A DNA stretch of 42,047 nt, from assembly GCF_051903065.1 (NCBI RefSeq), contig NZ_CP178441.1; one strand, 5' to 3'. Numbering within the stretch: position 1 is the first letter of the stretch; every line of letters starts with the position of its first letter. Origin of the DNA: Escherichia coli. Lineage in GTDB: Bacteria > Pseudomonadota > Gammaproteobacteria > Enterobacterales > Enterobacteriaceae. This document shows, piece by piece, positions 1 through 41,327 of this stretch. Below the pieces are notes generated by a model that worked only from the letters and a program-made list of their open reading frames with translations, searched no databases and was not told the origin of the DNA. Position numbers and translations under genes: made by a program.

Positions 1-963
1 GATGCTGTGTACCGGTTTGAAGCCTGTATCTGGAAAATGAACGGTAAAACCTTCTTTGGGTGTAATGCCGGTGAACATGAAGCTGCTCATGTTATCAGTG
101 AATATTGCCGTGCTGATGACGGTAGCATTCCTATGTGGGGCCAGCACGGTGATTTTATCATCGAAAGTTTCAGTGGTATGCGAGCAAGGGTTAAGGTCGA
201 AGCCGGATGTATGATGGGTTATCTTTCCACCTCGTTTCATGCCGTTGATTTAAACGCCCCCTTTGTATCCGAAACAGGGTATCGTTCGCATTTTGTACAG
301 CTTTCAGATGTCAAACCTGGAGAAACCGTTGATGCACACGTATCCCGCGTATTTCAAAGCCTGATTGACGCCAGAAAGAAACCTGCTTTTATCTCTGCTG
401 ATTTCCGTGACAGGCTGGCATCTGAGCCTTTGCCTGATTGGTTAAAATCCCTTTCGCCCCCCCCTGATAGAACGCCTCTAACGCTCCCTGACGGCTTTGT
501 TAGGGTTGAGGCGTTATTACCCGCCTCTAAAGCATTTATCGCCCGTAAATGGGCTGTAGCAGCTCAGGAACGCATTACAGCTATTATGCAGAGAGAGCAG
601 GAGGCTGAAAGAGAAACTATGCGGGCCGAAAGCGAACGGCGCAAGCAACTGGCAAAGGAGCGTTCCAAAGAATACAAAGAGCGGATGATTACTGTTCAGC
701 ATTATAAAGAATTTTACGTTGGTGCTCGATGTGAAATCGTGAGTGTGCATCATCCGGTGTTTGCTAAAAATATTGGCACTATTGTAAAAATCGTTACGAT
801 ATACGATTCAGGATGTGTGGAGGCGCATGAAGATAAGCCTATACGTTATCGAATCAACCGTCGCGGAACTCAGGTAGTGGATTTTGACCCTACTTGCGTT
901 CGTACTTTTTACAATATTGATCAACTGAAATTACTGGAAGACAACAAAACAGGTGAATCGTGA
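1..963 (+). CDS. klcB: KlcB-like protein, 3' part (ORF open to window start; ORF track 7..963); carries a KorA-like C-terminal-domain motif
   Basis: Frame is open from nt 1. Internal motif LPDGFVRVEALLPASKAFIARKW matches the KorA/TrbA C-domain motif seen in 2764..3108 and 38389..38793. Position between klcA and korC matches the RK2 kilC operon. Confidence 0.55.
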   Translation, partial: DAVYRFEACIWKMNGKTFFGCNAGEHEAAHVISEYCRADDGSIPMWGQHGDFIIESFSGMRARVKVEAGCMMGYLSTSFHAVDLNAPFVSETGYRSHFVQLSDVKPGETVDAHVSRVFQSLIDARKKPAFISADFRDRLASEPLPDWLKSLSPPPDRTPLTLPDGFVRVEALLPASKAFIARKWAVAAQERITAIMQREQEAERETMRAESERRKQLAKERSKEYKERMITVQHYKEFYVGARCEIVSVHHPVFAKNIGTIVKIVTIYDSGCVEAHEDKPIRYRINRRGTQVVDFDPTCVRTFYNIDQLKLLEDNKTGES

Positions 964-1224
964 ATGCAAACTAAACCCTACCCTGTCTCAATCAGGTCAG
1001 AATGTTTTTTACCCTTTGGTGCGGGATGGGATTGTCCTACGCCAGAAGAAATTCGTACTTTGATGCAGATAGCAGAGCTAACAGGAAGCAAAGCAGCCAC
1101 ACTGACCGGTCTGAAAGACAGCCGAACCGTCAGGCGCTGGGTTGGGGGGGATACACCCATTCCTTTTTCGGCCTGGGCTATTCTGGTTGAATATGCAGGA
1201 TTGGGTAAAATCTGGAAGGTGTGA
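964..1224 (+). CDS. korC: KorC-like small transcriptional repressor (86 aa)
   Basis: ATG overlaps the klcB stop (TGAATG). Size and position match RK2 KorC. Four 17-bp palindromic operators of KorC type occur in the window. Confidence 0.55.
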   Translation: MQTKPYPVSIRSECFLPFGAGWDCPTPEEIRTLMQIAELTGSKAATLTGLKDSRTVRRWVGGDTPIPFSAWAILVEYAGLGKIWKV

Positions 1225-1231
1225 AACAGAT

Positions 1232-1244
1232 TTTAGCTGCTAAA
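1232..1244. promoter_or_regulatory. KorB-type operator (OB) TTTAGCTGCTAAA
   Basis: 13-bp palindrome with the RK2 OB consensus arms TTTAGC/GCTAAA, just upstream of a -35 hexamer. Confidence 0.6.
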
Positions 1245-1245
1245 A

Positions 1246-1275
1246 TTGCAATTATAGGACAATATGTCCTATAAT
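1246..1275 (+). promoter_or_regulatory. Sigma70-like promoter TTGCAA-18-TATAAT overlapped by KorC-type operator TAGGACAATATGTCCTA (1255..1271)
   Basis: Hexamers and spacing read directly. The 17-bp perfect-arm palindrome covers the spacer and -10, as at RK2 kleA/klcA promoters. Confidence 0.6.
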
Positions 1276-1321
1276 ATGCGTAAAGGTTTGGTAAACCACT
1301 TGAATAAAGCAGGAGGCCGGT

Positions 1322-1645
1322 ATGACCAATGTCGTTAAATTTCCTCGTCAAGAGGGAAGTAAACCGCAGCAAATTCGGGCGGTCGAGGATGTCGCTGGTC
1401 CAGCATCAGAAAACACAGTACGTAATATTCTGTATGGTGTCATTGGTGCGGTATACATGGTGCTGGTTATTCTCTGGATTCCTGTTCGCTTCCTGCTGAT
1501 CGCGAACGTTGTCATCCAGTTTTTTAAAATGCTTTTTAAATGGAGTGATGGCCCATTTGCTGCAGCCTGGCCGTTCGTGACCAGTTTCCTTGTACTGGCT
1601 ACTCTCACTTACATTATGGCAACGTGGAAACCCAAAGTGTCATAG
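1322..1645 (+). CDS. small integral membrane protein (kle-position), function unknown
   Basis: AGGAGG RBS 6 nt upstream of ATG. Product has two long hydrophobic helices. Confidence 0.6.
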   Translation: MTNVVKFPRQEGSKPQQIRAVEDVAGPASENTVRNILYGVIGAVYMVLVILWIPVRFLLIANVVIQFFKMLFKWSDGPFAAAWPFVTSFLVLATLTYIMATWKPKVS

Positions 1646-1720
1646 ATAGAATGAATGCGTTGGCATTTCTGATTATATAATGTCAGTTAATTTCTAATTG
1701 TAAATTATAGAGGGTTTAAT

Positions 1721-1972
1721 ATGAGTATGGATCTATCTCATCTGGCCGAAATGACACCTTCTGATGAAGCACGATTTTTTACCGTTTTTGATAGACAACT
1801 TGGATATGATGCAGGTGAAGAAGCCCGTGCCAATCTTCTTAGTGGCGTACCTATTTATTACGCTGAACGAAATACACCAGAAGGGTGTGTTATAAAAGAA
1901 TATCCAGATGGCCGTAAGGAACTGGTGAGTTTCATGACTGGTACAGAAAAAGTAGTTGAGGTTAAGCTCTGA
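1721..1972 (+). CDS. hypothetical 83-aa protein, putative antitoxin partner of the downstream kinase
   Basis: Stop overlaps the start of the next gene (TGATG coupling). AT-rich leader upstream. Confidence 0.5.
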   Translation: MSMDLSHLAEMTPSDEARFFTVFDRQLGYDAGEEARANLLSGVPIYYAERNTPEGCVIKEYPDGRKELVSFMTGTEKVVEVKL

Positions 1973-2562
1973 TGCGTCCTCAACTCTGGGTTATTGCTGG
2001 GCCTAATGGTGCAGGAAAATCTACCCTAGTTAAGCGACATATCCTTGGGAAAATAGAGGTTGTTAACCCTGATGATATTGCGCGGGAACAAGGTATAAGC
2101 AATCGAAAGGCAGGAGAGCAGGCACTTTTTCTGCGCACGGAAAATATCAAAAATAGATGTACTTTCGCTGTAGAAACGACACTCACAGGAATGGGGGAGA
2201 TTAAGTTAATGCAGCTTGCTGCAACTGCAGGTTACAAAATTAATTTAATCTATGTGGGGGTGAAAGATGTAGGAATGTCAGTAGCTCGCGTTAACCAGCG
2301 TGTAAGCCTTGGTGGTCATAATGTGCCTGTTGATGATATTTTCAGACGATACGAGCGTTCTGTAACCAACCTACCTAAAGCTATGGCCGTGGCTGACCGG
2401 GTATGGGTATTTGATAACAGTTATAACAGACGGCGATTACTTTTCCGCACAGAACAAGATAAAACAAAGTTCATTTCTAATGATTTGCCTGATTGGTTTA
2501 AAAAAGTCGCTGGGACAGAGATTGAGCAGGCCAGAATGAAAAAGAAGAAATTAAGTCGTTAG
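1972..2562 (+). CDS. P-loop kinase of zeta-toxin/AAA_33 type (putative toxin)
   Basis: Walker A GPNGAGKST near the N-terminus, followed by a VVNPDD segment and an HNVP...RRYERS segment typical of zeta-like kinases. Translationally coupled to the upstream small ORF. Confidence 0.55.
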   Translation: MRPQLWVIAGPNGAGKSTLVKRHILGKIEVVNPDDIAREQGISNRKAGEQALFLRTENIKNRCTFAVETTLTGMGEIKLMQLAATAGYKINLIYVGVKDVGMSVARVNQRVSLGGHNVPVDDIFRRYERSVTNLPKAMAVADRVWVFDNSYNRRRLLFRTEQDKTKFISNDLPDWFKKVAGTEIEQARMKKKKLSR

Positions 2563-8519: not shown

Positions 8520-8600
8520 TTGTGTAGACTTTCCTTGGCGTAAACACCGGCGAAAGCCGGGCAGGACATGTAAAGTAGGCCCACCGTAAACGGTGCTTCT
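8520..8600 (-). other. oriT, with nic region on the minus strand (CTTTACATGTCCTG|CCCGGCT; nick predicted between 8562 and 8561) and adjacent hairpin
   Basis: Minus-strand sequence closely matches the recalled RP4 nic region CTTCACCTATCCTG|CCCGGCT, and CCAAGGAAAGTCTACA is identical. A 5-bp stem hairpin lies at 8582..8595. Confidence 0.75.
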
Positions 8601-8688
8601 ACTTTACCTTCCCTTATTCGCAGCGGGGCTGCTCAACGGGAGTCCTGCTCTGCGAGGCTAATCGGCTACCGCCTATATGGAGATCGAG

Positions 8689-17121: not shown

Positions 17122-19239
17122 ATGGCAGAAGCTAAAGCGAAAAAACCATTTTATGAGATTGTGGCTGAAAACCTGATAGCCCAGCTTAAAGAGGGGACTG
17201 CTCCATGGCAGAAACCATGGAACCCCGGCGCTCCTGGTGTCGCATTGCCTATGAACCCTACGACGGGTAAACGTTATAAAGGCATTAACGCTATTCACCT
17301 TATGGCGCAGGGTTATAGCGATCAACGTTGGATGACCTATAAGCAGGCGACGGCTGCAAATGCGCAGGTAAGGAGAGGCGAAAAAGGCACGCCGATCCAA
17401 TACTGGAAATTTACTGAGGAACGCATCAAACGCAACGATGATGGTAGCGTTGTGCTCGATAAAGACGATAAACCGGTAAAAGAAACTGTCCAACTGGAGC
17501 GACCGAAGGTATTTAACGCAGTTGTGTTTAATGCGGAGCAGATTGACGGTCTACCGCCGATGGCCGTTCGCCAAGATAAGAGCTGGAACAGTATTGAACG
17601 TGCTGAATCTATTCTCGAAGCCTCTGGCGCGAAAATCTCTCATGACCAGGTTGACCGGGCTTTTTACCGTATGTCTACAGACAGCATTCATTTGCCGCAG
17701 CAGGCTTCCTTTCCAAGTGCTGATCGTTACTATGCCACTGCACTTCATGAATTGAGCCACTGGACAGGTCACGCATCGCGTCTTGATCGTGACCTGTCTC
17801 ATCCTTTTGGAAGTGAAGGTTACGCCAGAGAAGAACTACGCGCAGAGATTGCCAGTATGATCATTGGCGATGAACTGGGGATAGGTCATGACCCTTCCCA
17901 GCATGTTGCCTATGTAAAATCTTGGATTAAAGCCTTACAGGATGATCCGCTGGAAATTTTCCGTGCAGCAGCTGATGCTGAAAAAATCCAGGGGTTCGTG
18001 TTGGGCCTTGAACAACAGAGAATACAGGAACAACCGGTAACTCTGGAAAGAGAGCAGCGCGAAAAAGAGCATAATGAGGTAATGGCTGAGGTACAGCGGC
18101 TGACTAACCCGCAGATTTTCGATGCGGAAACAGCTCAACTCTATCATTTCACATTCATGACACTGGAGCAGACAGCTGAGGAAGCTGGTTACGTTACCTA
18201 TTACAGCCGTGGCACTGGTGAGCTGGGCGAAGAAACTATTCGGGTTAATTACGAAGACAGTAATGGAAATACTATTCCTGTTCATACTGATGTGGTTGGG
18301 CGCGGAAAAGCATTGACATATATCGGTGATGAGCGTGTCCCCGGAACGGGATTTTCATCCGATAATGAATGGCAAAGCAATGCTCTTAAAACCGCTTTCG
18401 CCAGCATGGATAACAACCTAACTTTAGTCGCTAAAAAAGTTCATAGTCAGATTGAAAATATCAGTGGAGACCCGCGAGAGTTACCGCAGGATGTTAAGTT
18501 TCCTAAAAACTGGTGGCCTAATTCCAGTTTTCTGGCGTCGACCCCAAGTGTGGAGAACTCAAAAGCAGCTGCAGAGGCTGATATGACCACTAAAACTGAA
18601 ACGTCTATTACATCAGCGCAGCAGCGCCAGTATCGTGCAGAGAAATTTATTCTTTCGAATCTCGATAGTGGTCTTTCTAAGCACGTTCAGAATATGAACC
18701 GTCGCCAGCTTACGTTGTCACGAAACGTTCTCTATGATGCTCAAAATAGCAATCAGGATAGTGATTTTTGGCAGCGTAACAAGGAATTTCATTCTTCGTT
18801 CAGTCAAAACTGGAATGAGGCTCAGGACAAGATCAAGAGCGCATACCGTGAGATTGATTTTGCATTATCACTTCTACCAGAGCCGAAATATAACATTGTG
18901 GAAAATCCTGGTCAGAATGAGCATGTGAATATAATCATGCAGACCAACAGTGCAGTTAAGGCGCTGGCCGCTGTTAACGAAGGGGATAATCGTTCAATTT
19001 ATGACTCACGTCTCATCAATAACGGTAAGGTCGATCTGAATGACCTGCAGAACAATTTTTATCAAACACTTGAAGCAGAAAAAGCAGCCTTAAAGCAAGG
19101 TATTATCAAGCCTGATGATGAGATTAGCGTGCTCCCACCAAGAGAAGCACAGGAATGGTATCAAGACCGTGTTGAAGGCTTGACGTATAGGAAATTGAAA
19201 AACCAGTCGATACCATTGTCCACGCCTTATGCCACGTGA
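17122..19239 (+). CDS. ardC: ArdC-like antirestriction protein (N-terminal ssDNA-binding domain plus HExxH metalloprotease) with a roughly 400-aa C-terminal extension
   Basis: N-terminal ...APWQKPW... ArdC-type segment and HExxH motif ALHELSHWTGH. Total length 705 aa versus about 300 aa for canonical ArdC. Confidence 0.7.
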   Translation: MAEAKAKKPFYEIVAENLIAQLKEGTAPWQKPWNPGAPGVALPMNPTTGKRYKGINAIHLMAQGYSDQRWMTYKQATAANAQVRRGEKGTPIQYWKFTEERIKRNDDGSVVLDKDDKPVKETVQLERPKVFNAVVFNAEQIDGLPPMAVRQDKSWNSIERAESILEASGAKISHDQVDRAFYRMSTDSIHLPQQASFPSADRYYATALHELSHWTGHASRLDRDLSHPFGSEGYAREELRAEIASMIIGDELGIGHDPSQHVAYVKSWIKALQDDPLEIFRAAADAEKIQGFVLGLEQQRIQEQPVTLEREQREKEHNEVMAEVQRLTNPQIFDAETAQLYHFTFMTLEQTAEEAGYVTYYSRGTGELGEETIRVNYEDSNGNTIPVHTDVVGRGKALTYIGDERVPGTGFSSDNEWQSNALKTAFASMDNNLTLVAKKVHSQIENISGDPRELPQDVKFPKNWWPNSSFLASTPSVENSKAAAEADMTTKTETSITSAQQRQYRAEKFILSNLDSGLSKHVQNMNRRQLTLSRNVLYDAQNSNQDSDFWQRNKEFHSSFSQNWNEAQDKIKSAYREIDFALSLLPEPKYNIVENPGQNEHVNIIMQTNSAVKALAAVNEGDNRSIYDSRLINNGKVDLNDLQNNFYQTLEAEKAALKQGIIKPDDEISVLPPREAQEWYQDRVEGLTYRKLKNQSIPLSTPYAT

Positions 19240-19503
19240 GCCTTTCTGCTTTTCCCACCACTCCGGTGGTTTCCCTCTCTGTATGGTCGATTTTTATACC
19301 GTAACAGGCTGTTTTTTATACTTTCACCGATTCCCGGGCACACTTAGCCTGTGTCAGGCCGGCATATACCTCAGTAGACTGATATCCCGCGCGTTTTTCT
19401 TCAGCCCTGATACATTCAGCCCCGCAATGGCCCGGCGGTATACCATCCGGCAGCCACACAGCACGCATTCGAACGGGTCACGACTCAGGAACTGTTTCAC
19501 CAT

Positions 19504-21291
19504 TTGTGCATAGCACACTTTCGCCACTGGTTCATGGAGGACGCTGACAGCCCGGATGAACTGAAAAGCGCTCTGGATGCGCTTGGCCCAGAACCGGGAG
19601 ATAATGAGGCTGTTTTCCTTGGTGAAGATGGAGGGCGAATTCTTCCAGAATTCAGTCTGAACGTTACGCAGGAAAATACTCCAATCAATGTCCCCTACAA
19701 AGAACGCAATGAAGCTAAAGCGCTTGGGGCAAAATGGGATCGAACCGAACAGACCTGGTTTGTACCAAAAGGTGTATCTCTGGATAAATTTGCAAAATGG
19801 GTTGGTGGGCCAACTGCAGAAAACAATTCATCTGTCGTATCTGTGAAAGAAGTAACGCCAAAAGTGGGTGAGCGTCAGAATCTGGCTGTCCCTTATAAAG
19901 ACCGCGCAGAAGCTAAAGCAGCTGGTGCTAAATGGGACAAAGAGAAAAAAACTTGGTATGCCGAAGCTGGGGCAGATATGCAAAAACTGGCGAAGTGGAA
20001 ACCGGAAAATGTGGTGATCGAACAGTCACCGGCCATGACGCTAAAGGAGGAAGTAGAAACCGCGCTGAAAGATATTGGGTGCATCCTTGATGCCGATACT
20101 GACAAAGGACAGAAACATCCAATTATGGATGGTAAGAAGCATCGGATCACGGTAGAGGGAGACAAGAAAGGGGAAAAGTCAGGTTTTTATATCATCTATA
20201 CTGACGGCCATCCTGCGGGCTTCATGCAGAACAACCGCACCAAAGAAGAGTTACGTTGGTCTTCCAAGGGAAATGTGATGTCCGACGAAGAAAAAGCGCT
20301 CCTGCGGGCGCAGGCTGCTCAGAAACAGGCCGAAAAAGCGGCACAGCAGCAAAAAGACCATGAGTCCTCTGCAAAGCGTGTTCAAAAGCAGCTCGCTAAA
20401 CTCAATGAACCTCAGCAGCAAACTGCTTACCTGAAGAAGAAAGGGCTGCAGGTACATAAAGGTGTGTTCACTGATAAGGACGGACAGAAAACCTTTATTC
20501 CTGCTTATGATGTCCATGGTAAGCAATGGACTATGCAGTACATCAACGAGGACGGCACAAAACGTTTTGCCAAAAATGCTCGCAAAGAGGGATGTTTCCA
20601 TGTCATTGGCGGGCTGGATGCGCTTAAAAAATCTCCGGTGTTGATTGTGGCCGAAGGTTACGCAACGGCAGGGAGCATCACAGAGGCTACTAATATACCA
20701 ACGGTCGCCGCCTTCGATTCAGGTAATCTGGAATCTGTCGCGAAAACGCTTAAAGAAGCCTACCCCGATAAGCCAATCATCATTGCCGGTGATGATGATA
20801 TTTCTCAGTCATGCAAAATGAAGGTGAAGGATAAAGCCAGTGTAAACGTCGGCAGGGAAAAAGCGCTGGAAACAGCGAAAGCTGTCGGCGGTGTGGCTGT
20901 GTTTCCAGTTTTTGCTAAAGGTGAATTACCTGGGAAAGACGAACTCAGCCAGATTAAACCGGCGGCGTATCTTGCACACCAGACCGCCTCGCGCAAACTG
21001 GAGGCCCATACGAGCGGTGATAAGCCACTCTCGGATGCCGAAGTGAAGGTTCTGCAGGCAGCACAGCTATCGGAAAAGCAGCTTGATATTATTCGCCGCG
21101 CTGATCGTTACACTGACTTTAACGATCTGGCCGTAAATAGTTCTCTTGGCCGGGAAGGTGTGGCGATGCAGTTGAAAGCCGTCATTGCTGACCAGCTGAA
21201 TAAAAAACAGCAGCAGTCACAGGTCCAGATCGAAGAGAAGAAACTCGTTCAGGAAAAAGAGAAAAAACGGACCATTCGCCACGCTATGTAA
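19504..21291 (+). CDS. traC: TraC-like DNA primase (Toprim domain); start uncertain (alternative ATG at 19534)
   Basis: Toprim segment VLIVAEGYATAGS...IIIAGDDD. Two N-terminal repeats of the ...AK..GAKWD...K.W motif. Confidence 0.75.
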   Translation: MCIAHFRHWFMEDADSPDELKSALDALGPEPGDNEAVFLGEDGGRILPEFSLNVTQENTPINVPYKERNEAKALGAKWDRTEQTWFVPKGVSLDKFAKWVGGPTAENNSSVVSVKEVTPKVGERQNLAVPYKDRAEAKAAGAKWDKEKKTWYAEAGADMQKLAKWKPENVVIEQSPAMTLKEEVETALKDIGCILDADTDKGQKHPIMDGKKHRITVEGDKKGEKSGFYIIYTDGHPAGFMQNNRTKEELRWSSKGNVMSDEEKALLRAQAAQKQAEKAAQQQKDHESSAKRVQKQLAKLNEPQQQTAYLKKKGLQVHKGVFTDKDGQKTFIPAYDVHGKQWTMQYINEDGTKRFAKNARKEGCFHVIGGLDALKKSPVLIVAEGYATAGSITEATNIPTVAAFDSGNLESVAKTLKEAYPDKPIIIAGDDDISQSCKMKVKDKASVNVGREKALETAKAVGGVAVFPVFAKGELPGKDELSQIKPAAYLAHQTASRKLEAHTSGDKPLSDAEVKVLQAAQLSEKQLDIIRRADRYTDFNDLAVNSSLGREGVAMQLKAVIADQLNKKQQQSQVQIEEKKLVQEKEKKRTIRHAM

Positions 21292-21386
21292 GATGTTCTG
21301 ACTCTGGCCTGCCTGCGGGCCAGTAAATTGCGCTCGCTTTAATGGTAAAATTAAATGCATCAAAAGATTACTTTTAAGGACAGAAA

Positions 21387-21878
21387 ATGAAAAAGATATA
21401 TACCGCAGCGTTTTTATTAATTTTTACCCCTTTAACTTATGCCACCGGATTTCCATGTGCTGGCTGTGGAATTGTTGATAATATGATAAAAGGAAAGGCT
21501 GATGAAACACCAATAATGGTGATGCTAGATACTCCGATTGAAAAAAATGACATTACGCCGAAGGAAATAAACTTAATATCACACGACGATAAATGTCTTT
21601 ACTCTGGTGTACTTACACAGACTCTTTCGAAAAATAAAGACAGCCGTATTATTGATGTCAATAAAAAGGTTTGCGGCTCGAATACTGAAAAGGTGTCTTA
21701 CTCCGTTTTGAGCATTAGTTCCAGCGAGCAATACAGCAAAGGCACACCGCTAAAGCTGTATCATGTCGCCGTAATGACTTCGGCAGGTCCGTTGTTCAGC
21801 GCTGATGTAATGAGCGAAATGATTAAAGATATTGCAGATGCAGTAGAACAGGCTAAGGCAAAAGGACTGACTAAGTGA
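21387..21878 (+). CDS. secreted/periplasmic hypothetical protein
   Basis: N-terminal signal peptide MKKIYTAAFLLIFTPLTYA. AT-rich. RBS AAGGA. Confidence 0.55.
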   Translation: MKKIYTAAFLLIFTPLTYATGFPCAGCGIVDNMIKGKADETPIMVMLDTPIEKNDITPKEINLISHDDKCLYSGVLTQTLSKNKDSRIIDVNKKVCGSNTEKVSYSVLSISSSEQYSKGTPLKLYHVAVMTSAGPLFSADVMSEMIKDIADAVEQAKAKGLTK

Positions 21879-22090
21879 GTCATTCAGATAAAAGGTCCGA
21901 GTTTTTGTATATGTTCCGGCGTTGCAGAACGATAGATACAGTTGAACGCCTTTATGAACATAAGCGGGACATTGTTTCTTCTGAACATCTTAGCGATTTT
22001 CTGAGTGCTTATGATCATCGCAAGGCAGAAATTTATCATGGAAAAATCTGGGATAAGGTTCCTGCGTCTGCCTGGCGGAATGTGAAATAA
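21875..22090 (+). CDS. hypothetical protein (71 aa), coupled to the upstream secreted protein gene
   Basis: GTGA start/stop overlap. Followed by a strong hairpin terminator. Confidence 0.4.
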   Translation: MSHSDKRSEFLYMFRRCRTIDTVERLYEHKRDIVSSEHLSDFLSAYDHRKAEIYHGKIWDKVPASAWRNVK

Positions 22091-22120
22091 AACAGCCGGG
22101 TAAACCCCGGCTGTTGTTAA
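22091..22120. terminator. bidirectional terminator hairpin (AACAGCCGGG-TAAAC-CCCGGCTGTT) between convergent operons
   Basis: 10-bp perfect stem with T-rich and A-rich flanks. Confidence 0.65.
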
Positions 22121-22122
22121 TT

Positions 22123-22135
22123 TTTAGCGGCTAAA
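22123..22135. promoter_or_regulatory. KorB-type operator TTTAGCGGCTAAA
   Basis: Perfect OB consensus between convergent genes. Confidence 0.55.
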
Positions 22136-22146
22136 ATAAATGAACG

Positions 22147-23133
22147 TTAATCATCATGGTCCAAAGGAGCTGAGTTTTTAATAGCTTCAATTTCATCAAG
22201 CAATCTTTTATTACGCTTTATTGCATCTTCAATGCGACGAATCAGCGCCTCATCACCTTTCCAGTAATTAAATTTACCTCTTTGACTTTTATCCCAAATA
22301 TCCTCCCACCACATGCTTTCATTTACACGATAATCCTTGAGAAGCATCAGTGGATAGGCTTGTTCCTCTTCTCTGATTTGCTTATAAGCAGATCGCGGCA
22401 TAAGGTAGCCTTTGACGTTTACATCAAGTTTGACAAAACTCTTGTACAGCGCCCGAAGAGTGACAAAAAAATCAGCCAAATCAGACTCGCCACCGGCTCC
22501 AATGACTTCACTTACGTGTAGGTTTGTCCAGAACGCATCAACATACCGTGTATTTTCAAACTCACGGAGTATCAGAAGTGCTCCTATATCACTATCTTCC
22601 CTTAGCAGCCTGATGTCTGTGACTTTATTACCATCACTATCAGGTCTGAGAAGGTGCTTAACAGCAGCCCGGCCTGTGCCGTGCATTCTGACGCCTGAGT
22701 TCCATTCATACACATCCCCCTCACCGTGAATTAACCAGTCGGCGCGACAACCAAATAACTTGCTTAACCGCTGCAGCTCAGTGAAGGAAGGGAGTACGTC
22801 ACCACTGAACCAGTTGGCGACAAGGCCAAGATCTTCAATCCCCAGCTCTACGGCCACATTGGACGGCACAAGAGGTTTGTAGTTACGGAATTGGTTGGTT
22901 TTCCGCAGAACTGTATTGAGGCGGCCAGACACTTCCTGCCGGTATAGTTCTTCTCCAGAATAAACCTGCTCAGGAGGTGCTATCCATTTCAACAGAGCAT
23001 AGCGGGCCTCACCTTCGACCGAACGTTGATTTTCGTTTGCTAACTGTTCTAGGGCGAAATATGCATCGTCCGGGAAATTTCTGACCTGAAATTTTTTCAT
23101 AACGCACCATTTTGGGAGAATGTGTGGCTTCAT
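22147..23133 (-). CDS. RHH (Arc/CopG-like) plus XRE-HTH-like protein with a large unknown C-terminal domain; start may be the internal ATG at 23100
   Basis: N-terminus KKFQVRNFPDDAYFALEQLANENQRSVEGEARYAL is RHH-like. A mid segment ...LQRLSKLFGCRADWLIHGEG is HTH-like. Downstream of a KorC-operator promoter region. Confidence 0.55.
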   Translation of the reverse strand: MKPHILPKWCVMKKFQVRNFPDDAYFALEQLANENQRSVEGEARYALLKWIAPPEQVYSGEELYRQEVSGRLNTVLRKTNQFRNYKPLVPSNVAVELGIEDLGLVANWFSGDVLPSFTELQRLSKLFGCRADWLIHGEGDVYEWNSGVRMHGTGRAAVKHLLRPDSDGNKVTDIRLLREDSDIGALLILREFENTRYVDAFWTNLHVSEVIGAGGESDLADFFVTLRALYKSFVKLDVNVKGYLMPRSAYKQIREEEQAYPLMLLKDYRVNESMWWEDIWDKSQRGKFNYWKGDEALIRRIEDAIKRNKRLLDEIEAIKNSAPLDHDD

Positions 23134-23207
23134 AATGAGGGCGGTTTGTCTTCATTGAAAGTTTCAAATTAATTCTATATGTATCTATTTGTTTTCAATA
23201 AGATCTA

Positions 23208-23414
23208 TTAAAAACCAATAAGTCTGCATTCATGGCTGACCATTTGGCTCAGGTAACGTGGTATCTGCTCGACCAAGTGGATGTTCGTCTCAGCGAGTTT
23301 TTCAATCTCATCAATGGTAACGGTTGGCAGAGCATGGATGAAATCTGACAGGGAAAGATGCTCCAGTGGCCGTCTGTCATATGATGCTGTTTTGCTATAG
23401 GATATACGGGACAT
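23208..23414 (-). CDS. small hypothetical protein (68 aa), first gene downstream of the KorC operators
   Basis: AAGGAA RBS upstream of the ATG. Confidence 0.5.
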   Translation of the reverse strand: MSRISYSKTASYDRRPLEHLSLSDFIHALPTVTIDEIEKLAETNIHLVEQIPRYLSQMVSHECRLIGF

Positions 23415-23445
23415 TTCAAATTCCTTGCACGGATTTTAGGTGTCG

Positions 23446-23471
23446 GATAGGGAGGTTGCAGCCTCCCTATC
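23446..23471. repeat. perfect 10-bp inverted repeat GATAGGGAGG-N6-CCTCCCTATC
   Basis: Read directly. Lies in the divergent intergenic region next to the KorC-type operators. Confidence 0.6.
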
Positions 23472-23481
23472 ATCCTTTGTA

Positions 23482-23524
23482 TAGGACATTATGTCCTGCA
23501 CCTATGATAGGACATTTTGTCCTA
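23482..23524. promoter_or_regulatory. two KorC-type operators (TAGGACATTATGTCCTG at 23482..23498; TAGGACATTTTGTCCTA at 23508..23524) in a divergent promoter region
   Basis: Same 17-bp palindrome family as at 1255..1271 and 41307..41323. Confidence 0.6.
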
Positions 23525-23567
23525 TTTGCAAGTGATTTTCAAACCGTCTAAGGATTGGGAGTGCGCC

Positions 23568-23678
23568 GTGCTATATATGTTAATCTGCAGTGTTCTGATG
23601 CTGGCACTGGTAAATGGCAAAAGTAAAGATTTGACTAAAGGCATTGATAAGCTGCAGGATGAATTTAAAGATAAATAG
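23568..23678 (+). CDS. possible small hydrophobic peptide (about 36 aa, GTG start)
   Basis: Short ORF with GGGA RBS and a hydrophobic N-terminus (LICSVLMLALV). Below the ORF-track size cutoff. Confidence 0.3.
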   Translation: MLYMLICSVLMLALVNGKSKDLTKGIDKLQDEFKDK

Positions 23679-23692
23679 AAGGAAGAGAATTA

Positions 23693-23890
23693 ATGGAAAT
23701 TTTCTTGAAGCCGCTGGGTATGGGGGCAGTGGCTGTATTTATCGGGATTGTTTTGCTCTGGCTTATTCCTGAATATAAAAAGACGCCCAGGAAAGCGGCT
23801 GTAGCTGTAATTAATATCGGAGTAGCTCTCATGCTCGCGGTGGCAGTAGGAATGATTGCAGTGATGATGATGACGCCAGCAGGAACCTGA
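23693..23890 (+). CDS. small membrane protein (65 aa, two predicted TM helices)
   Basis: AGGAAG RBS. Almost entirely hydrophobic sequence. Confidence 0.5.
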   Translation: MEIFLKPLGMGAVAVFIGIVLLWLIPEYKKTPRKAAVAVINIGVALMLAVAVGMIAVMMMTPAGT

Positions 23891-23898
23891 GAAAACTC

Positions 23899-23911
23899 TT
23901 TAGCGGCTAAA
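23899..23911. promoter_or_regulatory. KorB-type operator TTTAGCGGCTAAA
   Basis: Perfect OB consensus 9 nt after the 23693..23890 stop. Confidence 0.55.
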
Positions 23912-24060
23912 ATCGTAGCCGCTGATTTTACGAAATTTTCTTTTTCTTGGCGTAAATCGCATAGCAAATGACAGTAATCACAGCCCAGCAAATAATAAAA
24001 GGGTAGCTCTAAAAGAAGCCAAAGGGGAAATATAAAAAATAAGAGCAAATATTTTCATGT

Positions 24061-24948
24061 TTAACCCTCACCGTAAAGTAAACGTATTTGTTTGATAACG
24101 TTAGCCGCATCACCATTAACAAGTTTATGAAATTCTACAGCCATATCCTTTAGCTCGCTATCTTTCAGCAGCAGCTGCAGTCTCCCTAAGAAAAGTGACC
24201 ATGGTTTTTCGCTATCCATACGGCGGCCAAGGCGGGTATACGTACCGGCGTGGCATTTAGATTCTTCACCATTATGTACTGCGTTCATGAGCCTCACCAG
24301 TGCAATGAAAGTATCCCAATCATGGCGGGTATCAAATTGCGCGGTTTCACAGGTAAACGCCAGAACAGGAGGGCGGTTATCCTCCGGTGTATCGAAGGAA
24401 TTACTGTCATTTCCCCGGACAATAATCGTAAAGGTCTTGTTCCCAACCGTAAACGAATAATCGACGGATTGGATGCCTACCGGCGCGTGTTCGGTTGCAA
24501 ACGTCCTTCTGGATTCTTCATCACGAATATAGAAGCGATGTGCAAAGCCGAACAGATCCTGATAATAGTTAAGACTGCTTTCTATTAGGGTATTATCGAT
24601 GCGGTCACGTATTGCAAAGTAATCAGGGCCAGCCAAATGTTTGCTATCCAGTTGCTTCCTGGCCGCATCTGTCAAAAAAGCTATTTCAGCGGGAGTCAGA
24701 TCAGCAGGTTCATTTGTATTCCAAGGATCGCAAATTTTGTGATGAAGCCTTGAAAGCGTTTTGACCGGTTCAGCTACAAGCCGTGTAAGTTCATTCTGTG
24801 TTCCGTCATTAGCAATATTGTTTAGTGAGTTCTCTATCAGGTTAACCAGGAAAGCGTTAACTGACAGGTTACTTGCTTTTGCATAGGTTTTGATGCGCTC
24901 GACTTGCTCTCGCGACGTTCGCAATGAAATCTGTGTTAACTCCATCAT
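24061..24948 (-). CDS. RHH-domain protein with large unknown C-terminal domain, apparent paralog of 22147..23133 (ORF track start 25008)
   Basis: N-terminus ISLRTSREQVERIKTYAKASNLSVNAFLVNLIENSL is RHH-like. AGGAG RBS before the ATG at 24948. C-terminal region shows loose similarity to that of the 22147..23133 product. Confidence 0.55.
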   Translation of the reverse strand: MMELTQISLRTSREQVERIKTYAKASNLSVNAFLVNLIENSLNNIANDGTQNELTRLVAEPVKTLSRLHHKICDPWNTNEPADLTPAEIAFLTDAARKQLDSKHLAGPDYFAIRDRIDNTLIESSLNYYQDLFGFAHRFYIRDEESRRTFATEHAPVGIQSVDYSFTVGNKTFTIIVRGNDSNSFDTPEDNRPPVLAFTCETAQFDTRHDWDTFIALVRLMNAVHNGEESKCHAGTYTRLGRRMDSEKPWSLFLGRLQLLLKDSELKDMAVEFHKLVNGDAANVIKQIRLLYGEG

Positions 24949-24958
24949 TTCACTCCTA

Positions 24959-24985
24959 TTGAATGATTTATCATTGAATGATGCT
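24959..24985. promoter_or_regulatory. candidate operator: AATGAT-TT-ATCATT palindrome plus a third AATGAT direct copy, upstream of the RHH gene
   Basis: Repeats read directly in the leader of 24061..24948. RHH regulators commonly autoregulate through such repeats. Confidence 0.35.
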
Positions 24986-25175
24986 ACCACATCTAAAAGT
25001 GATGTCATTTCATTTTTATCACATTAATGGCTTTTTTAAGTTGCCTTGATTGACCTAGCCAGTTTAAGCTGTATTTGCAGTAAAAAAGCCATACACTTAA
25101 CGAGTGGGCTTTTAGGGTATACCTTAATTAACTAGCCTACGCATTTACTTTAAAGGCACTTGAGAAGGAGATTAA

Positions 25176-25541
25176 ATGAATTTTATTGCTTTATGGCCTT
25201 TATTGCTGGCCCAAGTGACAGTGATGTCACTGACAGTGATTTTTCTTGCTGCTGACAGGCGTTTTTTTTCATGGGACTGTTTTGTTGTTTGCACTCTGTC
25301 CATGATGATGGCAGAAGGTATTGTTATTATGAAATATGAACTGTGGCATATCCCTCCTGCCCTGCTGGGTCTGGCAGGAGGGTTGTCATGGTCGCTGCTG
25401 CTACTCCATACAGGATATTTCTCAGGCATATCAGAAGGAGCGCATAAGCGTTTGTGGCTCGCTGTCGCCGCAGTGTTTTCTGGTGCGGGAATGATTATAT
25501 TCTACTGGTTGCTCCATGCATCAGAAAACATAATTAAATAA
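25176..25541 (+). CDS. small integral membrane protein (4 predicted TM helices)
   Basis: GGAG RBS. Hydrophobic throughout. Confidence 0.5.
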   Translation: MNFIALWPLLLAQVTVMSLTVIFLAADRRFFSWDCFVVCTLSMMMAEGIVIMKYELWHIPPALLGLAGGLSWSLLLLHTGYFSGISEGAHKRLWLAVAAVFSGAGMIIFYWLLHASENIIK

Positions 25542-25624
25542 CGAATGGATAATGCGAGAAAGAGACATAACCAGAGAATATTGATAGATGATTGCGTGAT
25601 TGATTTGCTGGGGTATTTTATTAT

Positions 25625-26239
25625 ATGAAAATAGCGCGAATATATTTGCGGGTTAGTACAGACGAACAAGATTTAACCCGGCAAAATGAAATTATTGAAA
25701 ATGCCAGGAATAATGGATTCTATGTTGCCGGTATCTATAAAGAAAAGGCGTCCGGTGCAAGAGCTGACCGCCCGGAACTGCAACGTATGATTGATGATCT
25801 GCAGCTAGACGAAGTAGTTATTGCAGAACATATAGATCGTATCAGTCGTTTACCGCTCGATAGTGCGTTAGCGTTAATAAACTCTATAAAAGAGCGGGGA
25901 GCGAAGCTCGCCATTCCCGGTATTGTGGATCTTACCGAACTGGCAAACGCTCAATCCGGTGTCGCGAAGGTCGTTCTGGAATCTGTTCAGGATATGTTAC
26001 TCAAAGTTGCCCTACAGTTGGCAAGGGATGAGTATGAAAACCGTCGTAAACGCCAGAAAGAGGGTATTGAGCTGGCTAAACGGCAAGGCCGGTATCAGGG
26101 GCGAACTGCAAATCTACGGCTCCATAAACGCATCATTGAGTATCGTTCAAGGAAGACGAGTATTGCGGAAACAGCGAAACTTTGTGAATGTAGCGTTAGT
26201 CTTGTAAAAGCTGTATGGTCTAAACATAAAAATAAGTAA
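25625..26239 (+). CDS. serine recombinase (resolvase/invertase family)
   Basis: Catalytic N-terminal motif YLRVSTDEQDLTRQ and a C-terminal HTH. Typical length of about 200 aa. Confidence 0.85.
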   Translation: MKIARIYLRVSTDEQDLTRQNEIIENARNNGFYVAGIYKEKASGARADRPELQRMIDDLQLDEVVIAEHIDRISRLPLDSALALINSIKERGAKLAIPGIVDLTELANAQSGVAKVVLESVQDMLLKVALQLARDEYENRRKRQKEGIELAKRQGRYQGRTANLRLHKRIIEYRSRKTSIAETAKLCECSVSLVKAVWSKHKNK

Positions 26240-26270
26240 TTAAATTTAAATAATATAAGGTAGAGATTAA

Positions 26271-26639
26271 ATGAGCAAAGAAATTAGAGCGGAAAGAATC
26301 AAGAATGTAATTCTGGAAAACTCGACTTATGAAGAACTGGCCGAGAAGACTGGCATTAGCGTGAGTACGCTGGTCAGGATAGCGTCCGGTAAAACTGAAC
26401 CTAAGTTCAGTGATATTATTAAAATTGCGATGGTGACAGGCGTTGATTTAAATGAATTGGCACATGGAGATATTGTTAATATAAAGGAAGATGCAATGCT
26501 AAAAAATGATAAGCAAAATGACGAAGTTGTTAAGGCTCATAATTTCATCGTCTGGAATATATCCAGTTTAGATAAAAAAGATATATTATCTATATCAAGA
26601 ATAGTTTACGCACTTTCGACTTTGAAAAAAAAGCCCTAA
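26271..26639 (+). CDS. XRE-family HTH transcriptional regulator
   Basis: HTH segment YEELAEKTGISVSTLVRIASGKTEP. AT-rich codon usage. Confidence 0.6.
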   Translation: MSKEIRAERIKNVILENSTYEELAEKTGISVSTLVRIASGKTEPKFSDIIKIAMVTGVDLNELAHGDIVNIKEDAMLKNDKQNDEVVKAHNFIVWNISSLDKKDILSISRIVYALSTLKKKP

Positions 26640-26803
26640 TTATTTAATAATGCATAACAAACGTATAAATGTTTTGGTTTCTAACTTCTTTTATTAAAGG
26701 GTGAGGAATGGTCCCTCCCCGCCCTTAATACGCCAGAACAAAGCAAAAAAGAGGCATAACGACACGACCAGCATTAGCATGTTTTAGACGCTAGACGCAA
26801 AAA

Positions 26804-41298: not shown

Positions 41299-41327
41299 TT
41301 GAACAATAGGACAAAATGTCCTATTAT
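41299..41327 (+). promoter_or_regulatory. klcA promoter TTGAAC-17-TATTAT overlapped by KorC-type operator TAGGACAAAATGTCCTA (41307..41323)
   Basis: Hexamers plus a perfect-arm 17-bp palindrome. Same geometry as the promoter at 1246..1275. Confidence 0.6.

What the first reader, a model, noticed from the sequence alone, without database searches (positions are those of the whole stretch)
21300..26700. Accessory block between the Tra1 and Trb operons, wired into the KorC/KorB circuit, with paralogous RHH-domain proteins and small membrane peptides
This is the largest non-backbone stretch and is AT-richer than the transfer genes. Two KorC-type operators (23482..23524) sit in a divergent promoter region. 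On one side they control a 68-aa ORF plus a 328-aa protein with RHH, HTH-like and unknown C-terminal domains (22147..23133). On the other side are two tiny hydrophobic peptides (23568..23678, 23693..23890). A second RHH protein with a related C-terminal domain (24061..24948) is encoded nearby. In RK2 the Kor repressors control host-toxic kil loci, so this looks like an uncharacterised kil-like or defence/anti-defence module. I could not match the large C-terminal domains to any family I know.
Basis: partly seen in the sequence, partly recalled or inferred. Interest (0 to 1): 0.7.

Follow-up and report, generated by a model that had tools for sequence, protein, structure and literature searches.

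The report
KorC-controlled unit in mosaic plasmid cargo region
The stretch is the patchwork, partly decayed cargo region of a low-GC IncP-1 plasmid, and one 1.8-kb part of it is wired into the plasmid's KorC/KorB repressor circuit. The two large proteins are unrelated DNA-binding proteins of unknown function, not a paralogous pair or a recognisable defence system.

Summary
The window is a complete plasmid of about 42 kb from the Enterobacteriaceae 'clade II' IncP-1 group. It is near-identical to pCFSA664-2.

**What holds up**
- The operators are real. There is a KorC homologue (964-1224), and only four 17-bp KorC operators on the plasmid. Two of them lie at 23482-23524.
- Two perfect KorB operators (22123, 23899) bracket the unit.
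- The leftward promoter has the same layout as the plasmid's own klcA and kleE promoters. It drives orf68 and gene A.

**What does not hold up**
- The two large proteins are not paralogues (BLASTP shows nothing; hhalign probability is 0.08%).
- Gene A is FitA-type RHH + XRE HTH + a C-terminal domain with no Pfam or PDB sequence match. The family occurs on about 1,180 sequenced plasmids, nearly all listed as 'hypothetical'.
- Gene B is RHH + a Whirly/Pur-alpha-like fold, from a rare family.
- The first 'tiny peptide' is an in-frame deletion remnant of a membrane-protein gene of about 200 aa. That gene is also damaged in other lineages.
- Genes downstream of B are missing compared with a relative.
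- In relatives, mcr-1 sits where A lies.
- No defence-system model matches.

**Best reading:** a third KorC regulon member, probably expressed briefly on entry into a new host, inside a mosaic region. Function remains unknown. Interest is moderate.

The parts
964..1224 (+). korC, the 86-aa repressor. It is the last gene of the klcA-klcB-korC operon.
   Evidence: tblastn: 54-55% identity to annotated KorC of IncP-1beta plasmids, E 3e-19 and 6e-18.
1255..1271 (.). KorC operator in the kleE promoter. It lies outside the block and is shown for the regulon.
   Evidence: The -35 is TTGCAA, the operator sits in the spacer, and the -10 is TATAAT.
41307..41323 (.). KorC operator in the klcA promoter. 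It lies outside the block.
   Evidence: Same position relative to the start codon as in pJP4.
21387..21878 (+). 163-aa protein with a predicted signal peptide and no known family. It is the first gene of a unit that also contains hha.
   Evidence: ORF. No NCBIfam, PADLOC or PHROG match. The signal peptide is read from the sequence.
21911..22090 (+). Hha/YmoA-family modulator of nucleoid-associated proteins.
   Evidence: NCBIfam Hha match at E 4e-18; RefSeq name.
22091..22115 (.). Two-way terminator-like hairpin between the converging hha and gene A.
   Evidence: 10-bp stem with 7 GC pairs, found on both strands.
22123..22135 (.). Perfect KorB operator (OB). It marks the left edge of the KorC-controlled unit, 12 bp beyond the stop codon of A.
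22147..23100 (-). Gene A (317 aa). Residues 6-46 are a FitA-type RHH and residues about 57-130 are an XRE/cI-type HTH. Residues about 130-317 form an alpha/beta domain with no sequence match to any known family.
23208..23414 (-). orf68, the first gene of the leftward KorC-controlled transcript. Function unknown.
   Evidence: Conserved at protein level on 135 plasmids. An AAGGA ribosome-binding site is read. No family match.
23446..23471 (.). 11-bp-stem palindrome in the leader of the leftward transcript. Its role is unexplained: RNA hairpin, protein-binding site or insulator.
   Evidence: the leader folds with z = -4.5. Conserved in relatives.
23482..23498 (.). KorC operator OC1. It lies at about +1 of the leftward promoter and in the spacer of the rightward promoter.
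23508..23524 (.). KorC operator OC2. It lies in the spacer and -10 of the leftward promoter and at about +1 of the rightward promoter.
23504..23531 (-). Leftward promoter: TTGCAA, 16-nt spacer, TATCAT. Same layout as the klcA and kleE promoters.
23503..23508 (+). Probable -10 of the rightward promoter (TATGAT here, TATAAT in relatives). It overlaps the leftward -10, and there is no good -35.
   Evidence: plus my reading.
23568..23678 (+). In-frame deletion remnant (171 codons lost) of a 197-224-aa membrane-protein gene.
   Evidence: N- and C-terminal residues match the full gene of pMTY18780-4. Alignment breakpoints. Other damaged alleles.
23693..23890 (+). Intact 65-aa protein with two predicted membrane helices.
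   Evidence: ORF conserved in relatives. Hydrophobic segments read from the sequence.
23899..23911 (.). Perfect KorB operator (OB). It marks the right edge of the unit, 9 bp after the stop codon of the 65-aa ORF.
23912..24060 (-). Deletion scar. It holds the first ~16 codons of an 82-aa secreted-protein gene and, out of frame, the last ~26 codons of a 113-aa membrane-protein gene. 1,710 bp present in pMTY18780-4 are absent.
   Evidence: searches (breakpoints; the relative's genes), and my reading.
24061..24948 (-). Gene B (295 aa): N-terminal RHH, a helical linker, and a C-terminal Whirly/Pur-alpha/MRP-like domain. It probably has its own promoter and has no KorC operator.
25176..25541 (+). 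121-aa membrane protein. This cassette is replaced by four other genes in pMTY18780-4.
25625..26239 (+). Serine recombinase (resolvase/invertase type). By position it is the counterpart of RK2 ParA.
   Evidence: PHROG 125 at E 1e-34. NCBIfam. RefSeq name.
26271..26639 (+). 122-aa XRE-family HTH regulator.
   Evidence: PHROG 3557 at E 2e-45. NCBIfam.

Best explanation
The 5.4-kb stretch is the variable cargo and maintenance region of a clade-II IncP-1 plasmid. It lies between the primase end of Tra1 and trbN, at the site where RK2 carries its par/mrs genes. It is a mosaic of independent units:
- a secreted protein plus Hha;
- a KorC/KorB-controlled divergent unit;
- gene B with a deletion scar;
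- a membrane-protein cassette;
- a resolvase plus an XRE regulator.

Only the 1.78-kb unit from 22123 to 23911 is wired into the central control circuit.

**Shown**
- Two back-to-back promoters with overlapping -10 boxes are covered by two KorC operators.
- One KorB operator sits at each end of the unit.
- The leftward promoter copies the klcA/kleE promoter design. It drives orf68 and gene A, a three-domain DNA-binding protein.
- The rightward side held a two-gene membrane-protein operon, which in this plasmid is reduced to a remnant plus one intact 65-aa protein.

**Inferred**
- As with RK2 kil loci, the unit fires when the plasmid enters a cell that lacks KorC, together with the anti-restriction gene klcA.
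- It is then shut down by KorC, which is made from the klcA operon. KorB loaded at the flanking operators adds to the silencing.
- Gene A most likely acts as a transcription factor. Its C-terminal domain probably senses a signal or mediates oligomerisation. Its target is unknown.
- The membrane proteins are a costly, kil-like load that has been lost repeatedly.
- Gene B is a separate, probably self-regulated RHH protein with a domain of the kind that binds single-stranded nucleic acid. It is left over from a larger operon.
For: - **Plasmid identity and context:** and PMC9499019.
- **KorC homologue:**
- **KorC operators:** four sites only. Same motif and spacing as the pJP4 klcA/kleA operators.
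- **Leftward promoter:** -35, operator in the spacer, then -10, identical in design to the klcA and kleE promoters of the same plasmid.
- **Conservation of the control region:** the intergenic region is 94% conserved across three plasmids, while orf68 is only 69% identical at protein level to the pMCR-type plasmid group.
- **KorB operators:** they bracket the unit. KorB silences over distances above 1 kb as a sliding clamp (PMC11790492).
- **RP4 precedent:** KorC represses klcA, kleA and kleC (PMC12365149).
- **Mosaic structure and deletions:**
- **Domain make-up of A:**. Always the same three-domain architecture. A stand-alone gene in other plasmids and in a chromosome.
- **Fold of B:**
Against: - Nothing here measures transcription, KorC binding or toxicity.
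- The rightward promoter has no convincing -35, so KorC control of the membrane genes is inferred from operator position alone.
- There is no KorA operator in the block. In the published RK2 model, KorA is what locks the KorB clamp near promoters, so KorB action here is uncertain.
- Gene A may have its own promoter in the 107-bp gap after orf68. I read a possible TTGAAA-15-TAGAAT there, which the scan did not call.
- Gene A is not in the leading region of transfer, which weakens an 'early establishment' role.
- Repeated decay of the membrane gene could reflect neutral loss rather than cost.
Confidence: 0.55

Rival explanations
1. This is a defence or anti-defence module. Genes A and/or B, with the small membrane proteins, would protect the host from phage or protect the incoming plasmid from host immunity. 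The module would be kept silent by KorC because it is toxic.
For: - It shares a repressor with klcA, an ArdB-type anti-restriction gene.
- It sits in the most variable, AT-rich part of the plasmid.
- The A family occurs on about 1,180 plasmids, and its conserved C-terminal motifs look like an active or binding site.
- B family members lie among runs of small unknown genes on other plasmids.
Against: - No PADLOC model matches beyond generic HTH or marginal hits.
- No enzymatic domain was found in A or B.
- A is a stand-alone gene with no conserved partner.
- The block is not in the leading region that enters the recipient first. This follows from gene order relative to oriT.
- In the widespread mcr-1 plasmids, mcr-1 sits where A lies.
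- The membrane-protein gene is broken in several lineages.
Confidence: 0.15
2. Gene A is a fused, single-protein toxin-antitoxin or addiction element. The FitA-type RHH would be the antitoxin-like DNA-binding part, and the unknown C-terminal domain would be the toxic effector.
For: - The RHH matches the FitA antitoxin.
- Sources name some homologues 'plasmid stability protein' or 'antitoxin FitA'.
- The gene is found alone and mostly on plasmids.
Against: - There is no PIN or other toxin partner, and no toxin-like family match for the C-terminal domain.
- The source names come only from the RHH match.
- The extra XRE HTH and the constant three-domain layout fit a regulator better.
- The gene also occurs in a chromosome next to an ordinary MazE/PIN pair.
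Confidence: 0.1
3. The unit is decaying cargo with no current function in this plasmid. The operators persist only because they are recent or because KorC binding is harmless.
For: - In-frame deletion of the membrane gene, a deletion scar after B, and cassette swaps.
- Replacement of A by mcr-1 in relatives.
- An IS91 fragment sits in traC of this same plasmid.
Against: - The control region is better conserved (94%) than the flanking orf68 (69% protein identity).
- A keeps all family-invariant residues and an intact reading frame, as do orf68, the 65-aa gene and B.
- The deletion in the membrane gene is exactly in frame.
Confidence: 0.2

Closest known systems
RK2/RP4 KorC regulon (kilC = klcA operon; kilE = kleA and kleC operons)
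   Same: - A homologous KorC repressor.
- The same 17-bp palindromic operator placed in the spacer and -10 of a sigma-70 promoter.
- The repressor is encoded at the end of one of its own target operons.
- KorB operators lie nearby.
   Different: - The target genes are unrelated to klcA or kle.
- The locus lies between Tra1 and Trb, not in the central control region.
- There are two operators 26 bp apart, covering two overlapping divergent promoters.
- There is no KorA operator.
- A kil (host-lethal) phenotype has not been tested.
RK2 par/mrs region (parCBA resolution system plus parDE)
   Same: - Same position between Tra1 and the Trb operon.
- A serine recombinase is present.
- Relatives also carry a thermonuclease of the ParB (RK2) type.
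   Different: - No nuclease gene and no parDE in this plasmid.
- The KorC-controlled unit, Hha, A and B have no RK2 counterpart.
Phage cI / P22 C2 / R-M controller type XRE repressors, and the FitA RHH antitoxin
   Same: - Residues 6-46 match FitA.
   Different: - Both DNA-binding modules sit in one chain.
- They are followed by a roughly 190-residue domain with no detectable relatives outside this family.
- There is no FitB/PIN partner.
Whirly / Pur-alpha / MRP1-2 / PMN2A0962-like fold (single-stranded nucleic-acid-binding regulators)
   Different: - Sequence identity is 4-9%.
- The model is of moderate confidence (pLDDT 78).
- The domain is fused to an RHH.
- No nucleic-acid binding has been shown.

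Membership tests
IncP-1 KorC-regulated (kil-type) locus | The plasmid encodes a KorC repressor. | tested here: met
   964-1224 is 54-55% identical to annotated KorC of IncP-1beta plasmids.
IncP-1 KorC-regulated (kil-type) locus | A 17-bp palindromic KorC operator overlaps the core promoter. | tested here: met
   Two operators at 23482 and 23508. The leftward promoter places OC2 between -35 and -10, exactly as in klcAp and kleEp of the same plasmid and of pJP4.
IncP-1 KorC-regulated (kil-type) locus | Expression is repressed by KorC in vivo. | not testable with these tools
   Needs reporter fusions or RNA-seq with and without korC.
IncP-1 KorC-regulated (kil-type) locus | The locus is lethal or inhibitory to the host when the kor gene is absent. 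| not testable with these tools
   There is only indirect evidence: the rightward membrane-protein gene is deleted or frameshifted in several lineages.
KorB-regulated operon | A consensus OB site (TTTAGCSGCTAAA) lies within reach of the promoter. | tested here: met
   Perfect sites at 22123 and 23899. The second is roughly 380-390 bp from the promoters.
KorB-regulated operon | A partner repressor with the KorA/TrbA-type clamp-locking domain is bound at the promoter. | tested here: not met
   No KorA operator in the block; the only ones are at 2694 and 38851. Whether KorC can substitute is unknown.
Paralogous pair (A and B) | Detectable sequence or profile similarity between the two proteins. 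| tested here: not met
   Best BLASTP E-value is 2.7. hhalign probability is 0.08%. The C-terminal folds differ.
Known anti-phage defence system (PADLOC) | A significant match of any block protein to a defence-system model. | tested here: not met
   Only generic HTH matches and marginal hits (E 7e-4 or weaker for A and B).
FitAB-type type II toxin-antitoxin | A small RHH antitoxin encoded next to a PIN toxin. | tested here: not met
   A is 317 aa, has an extra HTH and an extra domain, and has no adjacent toxin gene here or in other contexts.
Whirly/Pur-alpha-like fold (B, C-terminal domain) | A repeated beta-beta-beta-beta-alpha unit that superposes on family members. | tested here: inconclusive
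   [not shown]
RK2 parCBA-type multimer resolution system | A resolvase, a nuclease and ParC together in one operon. | tested here: not met
   Only the serine recombinase is present. The nuclease is found in relatives but not here.

The most novel reading that the evidence does not exclude
Gene A would represent a widespread, unstudied class of plasmid-borne three-domain proteins: RHH, HTH, and a new alpha/beta domain with invariant S-E-x-x-G-x-G-G-E and W-W-E-D-x-W motifs. The family is present on about 1,180 sequenced enterobacterial plasmids, including Klebsiella IncFII and IncI1-type plasmids. In this reading it acts as an establishment factor made in a burst when the plasmid enters a new cell. 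Its C-terminal domain would sense or act on a host component, for example an immune or nucleoid protein. Here it would have been recruited into the KorC regulon alongside the anti-restriction gene klcA.
Probability: 0.15. Interest if true: 0.65.

Novelty: new member of a known kind. Interest (0 to 1): 0.4.

Why it matters
Clade-II IncP-1 plasmids carry mcr-1, KPC and IMP genes in Enterobacteriaceae, and this block is where such cargo lands. In a relative, mcr-1 sits exactly where gene A lies.

The work shows that KorC has a third target on these plasmids, outside the classical kilC and kilE loci. The target promoter pair is easy to test with reporter fusions and gel shifts.

It also flags a protein family found on more than a thousand sequenced resistance plasmids that almost no annotation names and that has no solved or annotated relative for its main domain.

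It corrects the picture of a coherent 'module': much of the block is patchwork and partly decayed.

Tried and rejected
**Paralogy of A and B.** Tested by BLASTP and profile-profile comparison and rejected.

**Defence system.** The PADLOC scan found nothing real.

**Family assignment of the C-terminal domain of A.**
- Pfam on the single sequence and on 13 members gave no hit.
- A PDB sequence profile at E up to 10 gave nothing.
- Foldseek against AFDB50 returned only uncharacterised full-length relatives.
- A profile search for other domain architectures always returned the same three-domain layout.

**A conserved partner gene for A.**
- A DUF7706 gene follows it in Klebsiella plasmids but is not convincingly similar to orf68.
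- Nothing is conserved next to it in Ralstonia, Gallionella or IncI1 contexts.
- orf68-like genes occur elsewhere without A.

**Palindromes upstream of the Klebsiella A homologue.** Looked for, in the hope of finding an operator for A; nothing similar to the 23446-23471 palindrome turned up.

**Structured RNAs.** An Rfam scan of the whole plasmid found only the traJ-II motif, and there are no tRNAs.

**Canonical rightward promoter.** No acceptable -35 was found.

Full report
**What the window is.** The 42,047-bp window is a whole circular plasmid.
- The block 21300-26700 is 100% identical to Salmonella plasmid pCFSA664-2 and several E. coli and Shigella plasmids of about 41.7 kb. In all, 189 PLSDB records match at least part of it.
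- The typing is MOBP / MPF_T with a TrfA replicon.
- Published work places pCFSA664-2 in 'clade II' of IncP/P-1. This is a low-GC, Enterobacteriaceae-restricted branch that also holds the mcr-1, KPC and IMP plasmids pMCR_1511, pHS102707 and pEN3600 (PMC9499019).
- Gene order follows RK2: klcA-klcB-korC, a kle operon, korA-incC-korB, kfr, traM-K, oriT, traJ to a traC-like gene, the block, trbN to trbB, trbA, ssb, trfA.

**Checking the observation.**
- The block is the most AT-rich 5.4 kb of the plasmid: 41.7% GC against 46.0% for the rest. Only 0.3% of equal-sized windows are as low.
- The 17-bp palindrome TAGGACATNNTGTCCTA occurs at four places only: 1255, 23482, 23508 and 41307. No shuffle matched this count.
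- In pJP4 (IncP-1beta) the same motif sits upstream of klcA and kleA at the same distance from the start codons.
- The 86-aa product of 964-1224 is 54-55% identical to annotated KorC of IncP-1beta plasmids.
- The KorB operator consensus occurs 12 times against 0.06 expected. Perfect copies lie at 22123 and 23899.
- KorA operators occur only at the korA and trbA/trfA promoters.

**Promoter anatomy.** I aligned the block's control region with the plasmid's own klcA and kleE promoters and with those of pJP4.
- The leftward promoter is TTGCAA (23531-23526), a 16-nt spacer, then TATCAT (23509-23504). Its design is the same as the others: -35, then the KorC operator filling the spacer and running into the -10.
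- OC2 plays that role. OC1 then lies at about +1.
- Rightward, the best -10 is TATGAT at 23503-23508. In two relatives it is a perfect TATAAT. It overlaps the leftward -10 on the other strand. OC1 lies in its spacer and OC2 at its start site, but no good -35 exists.
- These are therefore overlapping, back-to-back promoters, both covered by the operator pair.
- The 206-bp control region is 94% identical across three plasmids. The orf68 protein, by contrast, is only 69% identical to that of the pMCR-type plasmid group. This argues for selection on the control region.
- The two KorB operators lie 12 bp beyond the stop codon of gene A and 9 bp after the stop codon of the 65-aa ORF. They bracket a 1.78-kb unit.
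- KorB is known to silence over more than 1 kb as a CTP-dependent sliding clamp. In RK2 that clamp is locked near promoters by KorA (PMC11790492). The block has no KorA operator, so KorB action here is inferred, not shown.
- An 11-bp-stem palindrome at 23446-23471 sits in the leftward leader. That leader folds well beyond shuffled controls (z = -4.5). The palindrome is kept even in a relative that has mcr-1 where gene A would lie. Its role is unexplained.

**Gene A (22147-23100, minus strand, 317 aa).** Homologue alignments and RefSeq both start it at the second ATG.
- Residues 6-36 match Pfam FitA-like_RHH (E 1.8e-5), and residues 94-123 match HTH_3.
- A profile of 30 family members hits FitA and P22 C2 repressor in the PDB.
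- Residues about 130-317 form an alpha/beta domain. Its invariant residues cluster in S-E-x-x-G-x-G-G-E and W-W-E-D-x-W.
- This domain has no Pfam hit, even member by member. It has no PDB sequence hit at E up to 10.
- Foldseek against AFDB50 returns only full-length uncharacterised relatives from many Proteobacteria.
- A profile search with this domain alone found 67 clusters. All the full-length ones are about 290-350 aa, and most carry the FitA-RHH Pfam tag, so no other domain combination was seen.
- tblastn finds the family on 1,177 PLSDB plasmids. Of these, 913 are from Klebsiella, and they include IncFII and IncI1-type plasmids. Nearly all listed matches are annotated 'hypothetical'.
- The gene has no conserved neighbour.
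- Close copies (95% identity or more) occur on only 30 records. In pMCR_WCHEC1622 the mcr-1-pap2 cassette sits between hha and orf68, where A lies here. A is therefore not needed for plasmid survival.

**Gene B (24061-24948, minus strand, 295 aa).** It has a strong ribosome-binding site, AGGAG, read.
- The N-terminus gives only weak RHH sequence matches (NikA-like, Arc/Mnt).
- The model (pLDDT 78) superposes on the RHH antitoxins TacA, FitA and ParD.
- The family is rare. An exhaustive profile search found 29 representatives among 1.84 billion, and 113 PLSDB plasmids carry it. All contexts examined are plasmid-like.
- No KorC, KorB or KorA operator lies upstream of B.

**A and B are not paralogues.** BLASTP finds nothing (best E 2.7). 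hhalign of the two family profiles gives a probability of 0.08%. Their C-terminal folds also differ.

**The small ORFs, and the mosaic.** I compared the block with pMTY18780-4, a 57-kb relative.
- That plasmid has a 197-224-aa membrane-protein gene to the right of the operators.
- The window keeps its first 33 codons (counted from the upstream TTG at 23517) and its last 20, joined in frame. This is a loss of 513 bp, or 171 codons.
- The same gene is split by a frameshift in pMCR_WCHEC1622.
- Across 109 plasmids the locus exists in at least four states: complete, about 77 bp shorter, in three pieces, and 513 bp shorter.
- The 65-aa protein with two predicted membrane helices is intact and conserved.
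- Between the right-hand KorB operator and B, the window lacks 1,710 bp. In the relative this stretch encodes a membrane-anchored FtsH-like M41 peptidase domain protein and three small proteins. Only the first ~16 codons of one gene and the last ~26 codons of another remain, out of frame with each other.
- Further right, the 121-aa membrane-protein gene and the XRE gene are cassettes. The relative carries other genes in their place, including a thermonuclease of the RK2 ParB type. The serine recombinase is shared.
- The block is therefore a recombination-prone cargo region at the place where RK2 carries par/mrs. It is not a single module.

**Interpretation.** The supported core is a third KorC-controlled locus, in addition to klcA-klcB-korC and the kle operon.
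- By that logic, orf68, A and the rightward membrane genes should be expressed when the plasmid enters a KorC-free cell, then silenced. This is inference.
- A looks like a transcription factor with two DNA-binding modules and a sensing or oligomerising domain. Its targets are unknown.
- Repeated damage to the membrane-protein gene fits a costly kil-like load, but neutral decay would look the same.
- I found no support for a defence or anti-defence role. The block also lies late in the order of transfer rather than in the leading region.

**Verdict.**
- It is best filed as a new member of the known class of Kor-regulated IncP-1 loci, sitting in a mosaic and partly degraded region.
- The most interesting residue is the A family. 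It is common on resistance plasmids, almost never named, and has a main domain with no known relatives.
- Interest is 0.4.

Noticed in passing
window 19184-19530: A 347-bp fragment of an IS91-family element is inserted in the traC-like primase/zincin gene. It is absent from pCFSA664-2. It splits the reading frame into 17122-19239 and 19504-21291, so this plasmid copy may lack an intact TraC.
   Followed up: yes
window 1232-2562: The kle operon sits behind a KorB-like site (1232) and a KorC operator (1255). It carries kleE, an 83-aa ORF and a zeta-toxin family gene (1972-2562). This is a possible toxin-antitoxin pair under Kor control and a more obvious 'kil' candidate than the block.
   Followed up: partly
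window 23446-23471: A conserved 11-bp-stem palindrome lies between orf68 and the KorC operators. It is kept in relatives that have mcr-1 in place of gene A. In pMTY18780-4 one stem change would keep pairing (G-U) only in plus-strand RNA. Function unknown.
   Followed up: partly
NZ_KY463452.1 46221-48640 (locus L019 2222-4641): In the mcr-1 plasmid pMCR_WCHEC1622, the mcr-1-pap2 cassette lies between hha and orf68. That is exactly where gene A lies in the window.
   Followed up: partly
window 8559-8659: The traJ-II RNA motif (Rfam RF01760, 97 bits) lies upstream of traJ. It is the only Rfam match on the plasmid.
   Followed up: no
window 7-963: The KlcB-like protein carries the C-terminal segment shared with TrbA and KorA (NCBIfam TrbA match over residues 155-191). 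The window starts inside this gene, so the sequence is a circular permutation of the plasmid.
   Followed up: partly
L002 6888-7910 (pMTY18780-4): Relatives encode, directly after gene B, a 340-aa membrane protein with an FtsH-like M41 peptidase domain (HEAGH motif) but no ATPase domain. It is absent from the window.
   Followed up: partly
whole window: There are twelve KorB operator sites (up to one mismatch), mostly intergenic. This is the same number that, from memory, is usually quoted for RK2, despite the large sequence divergence.
   Followed up: no
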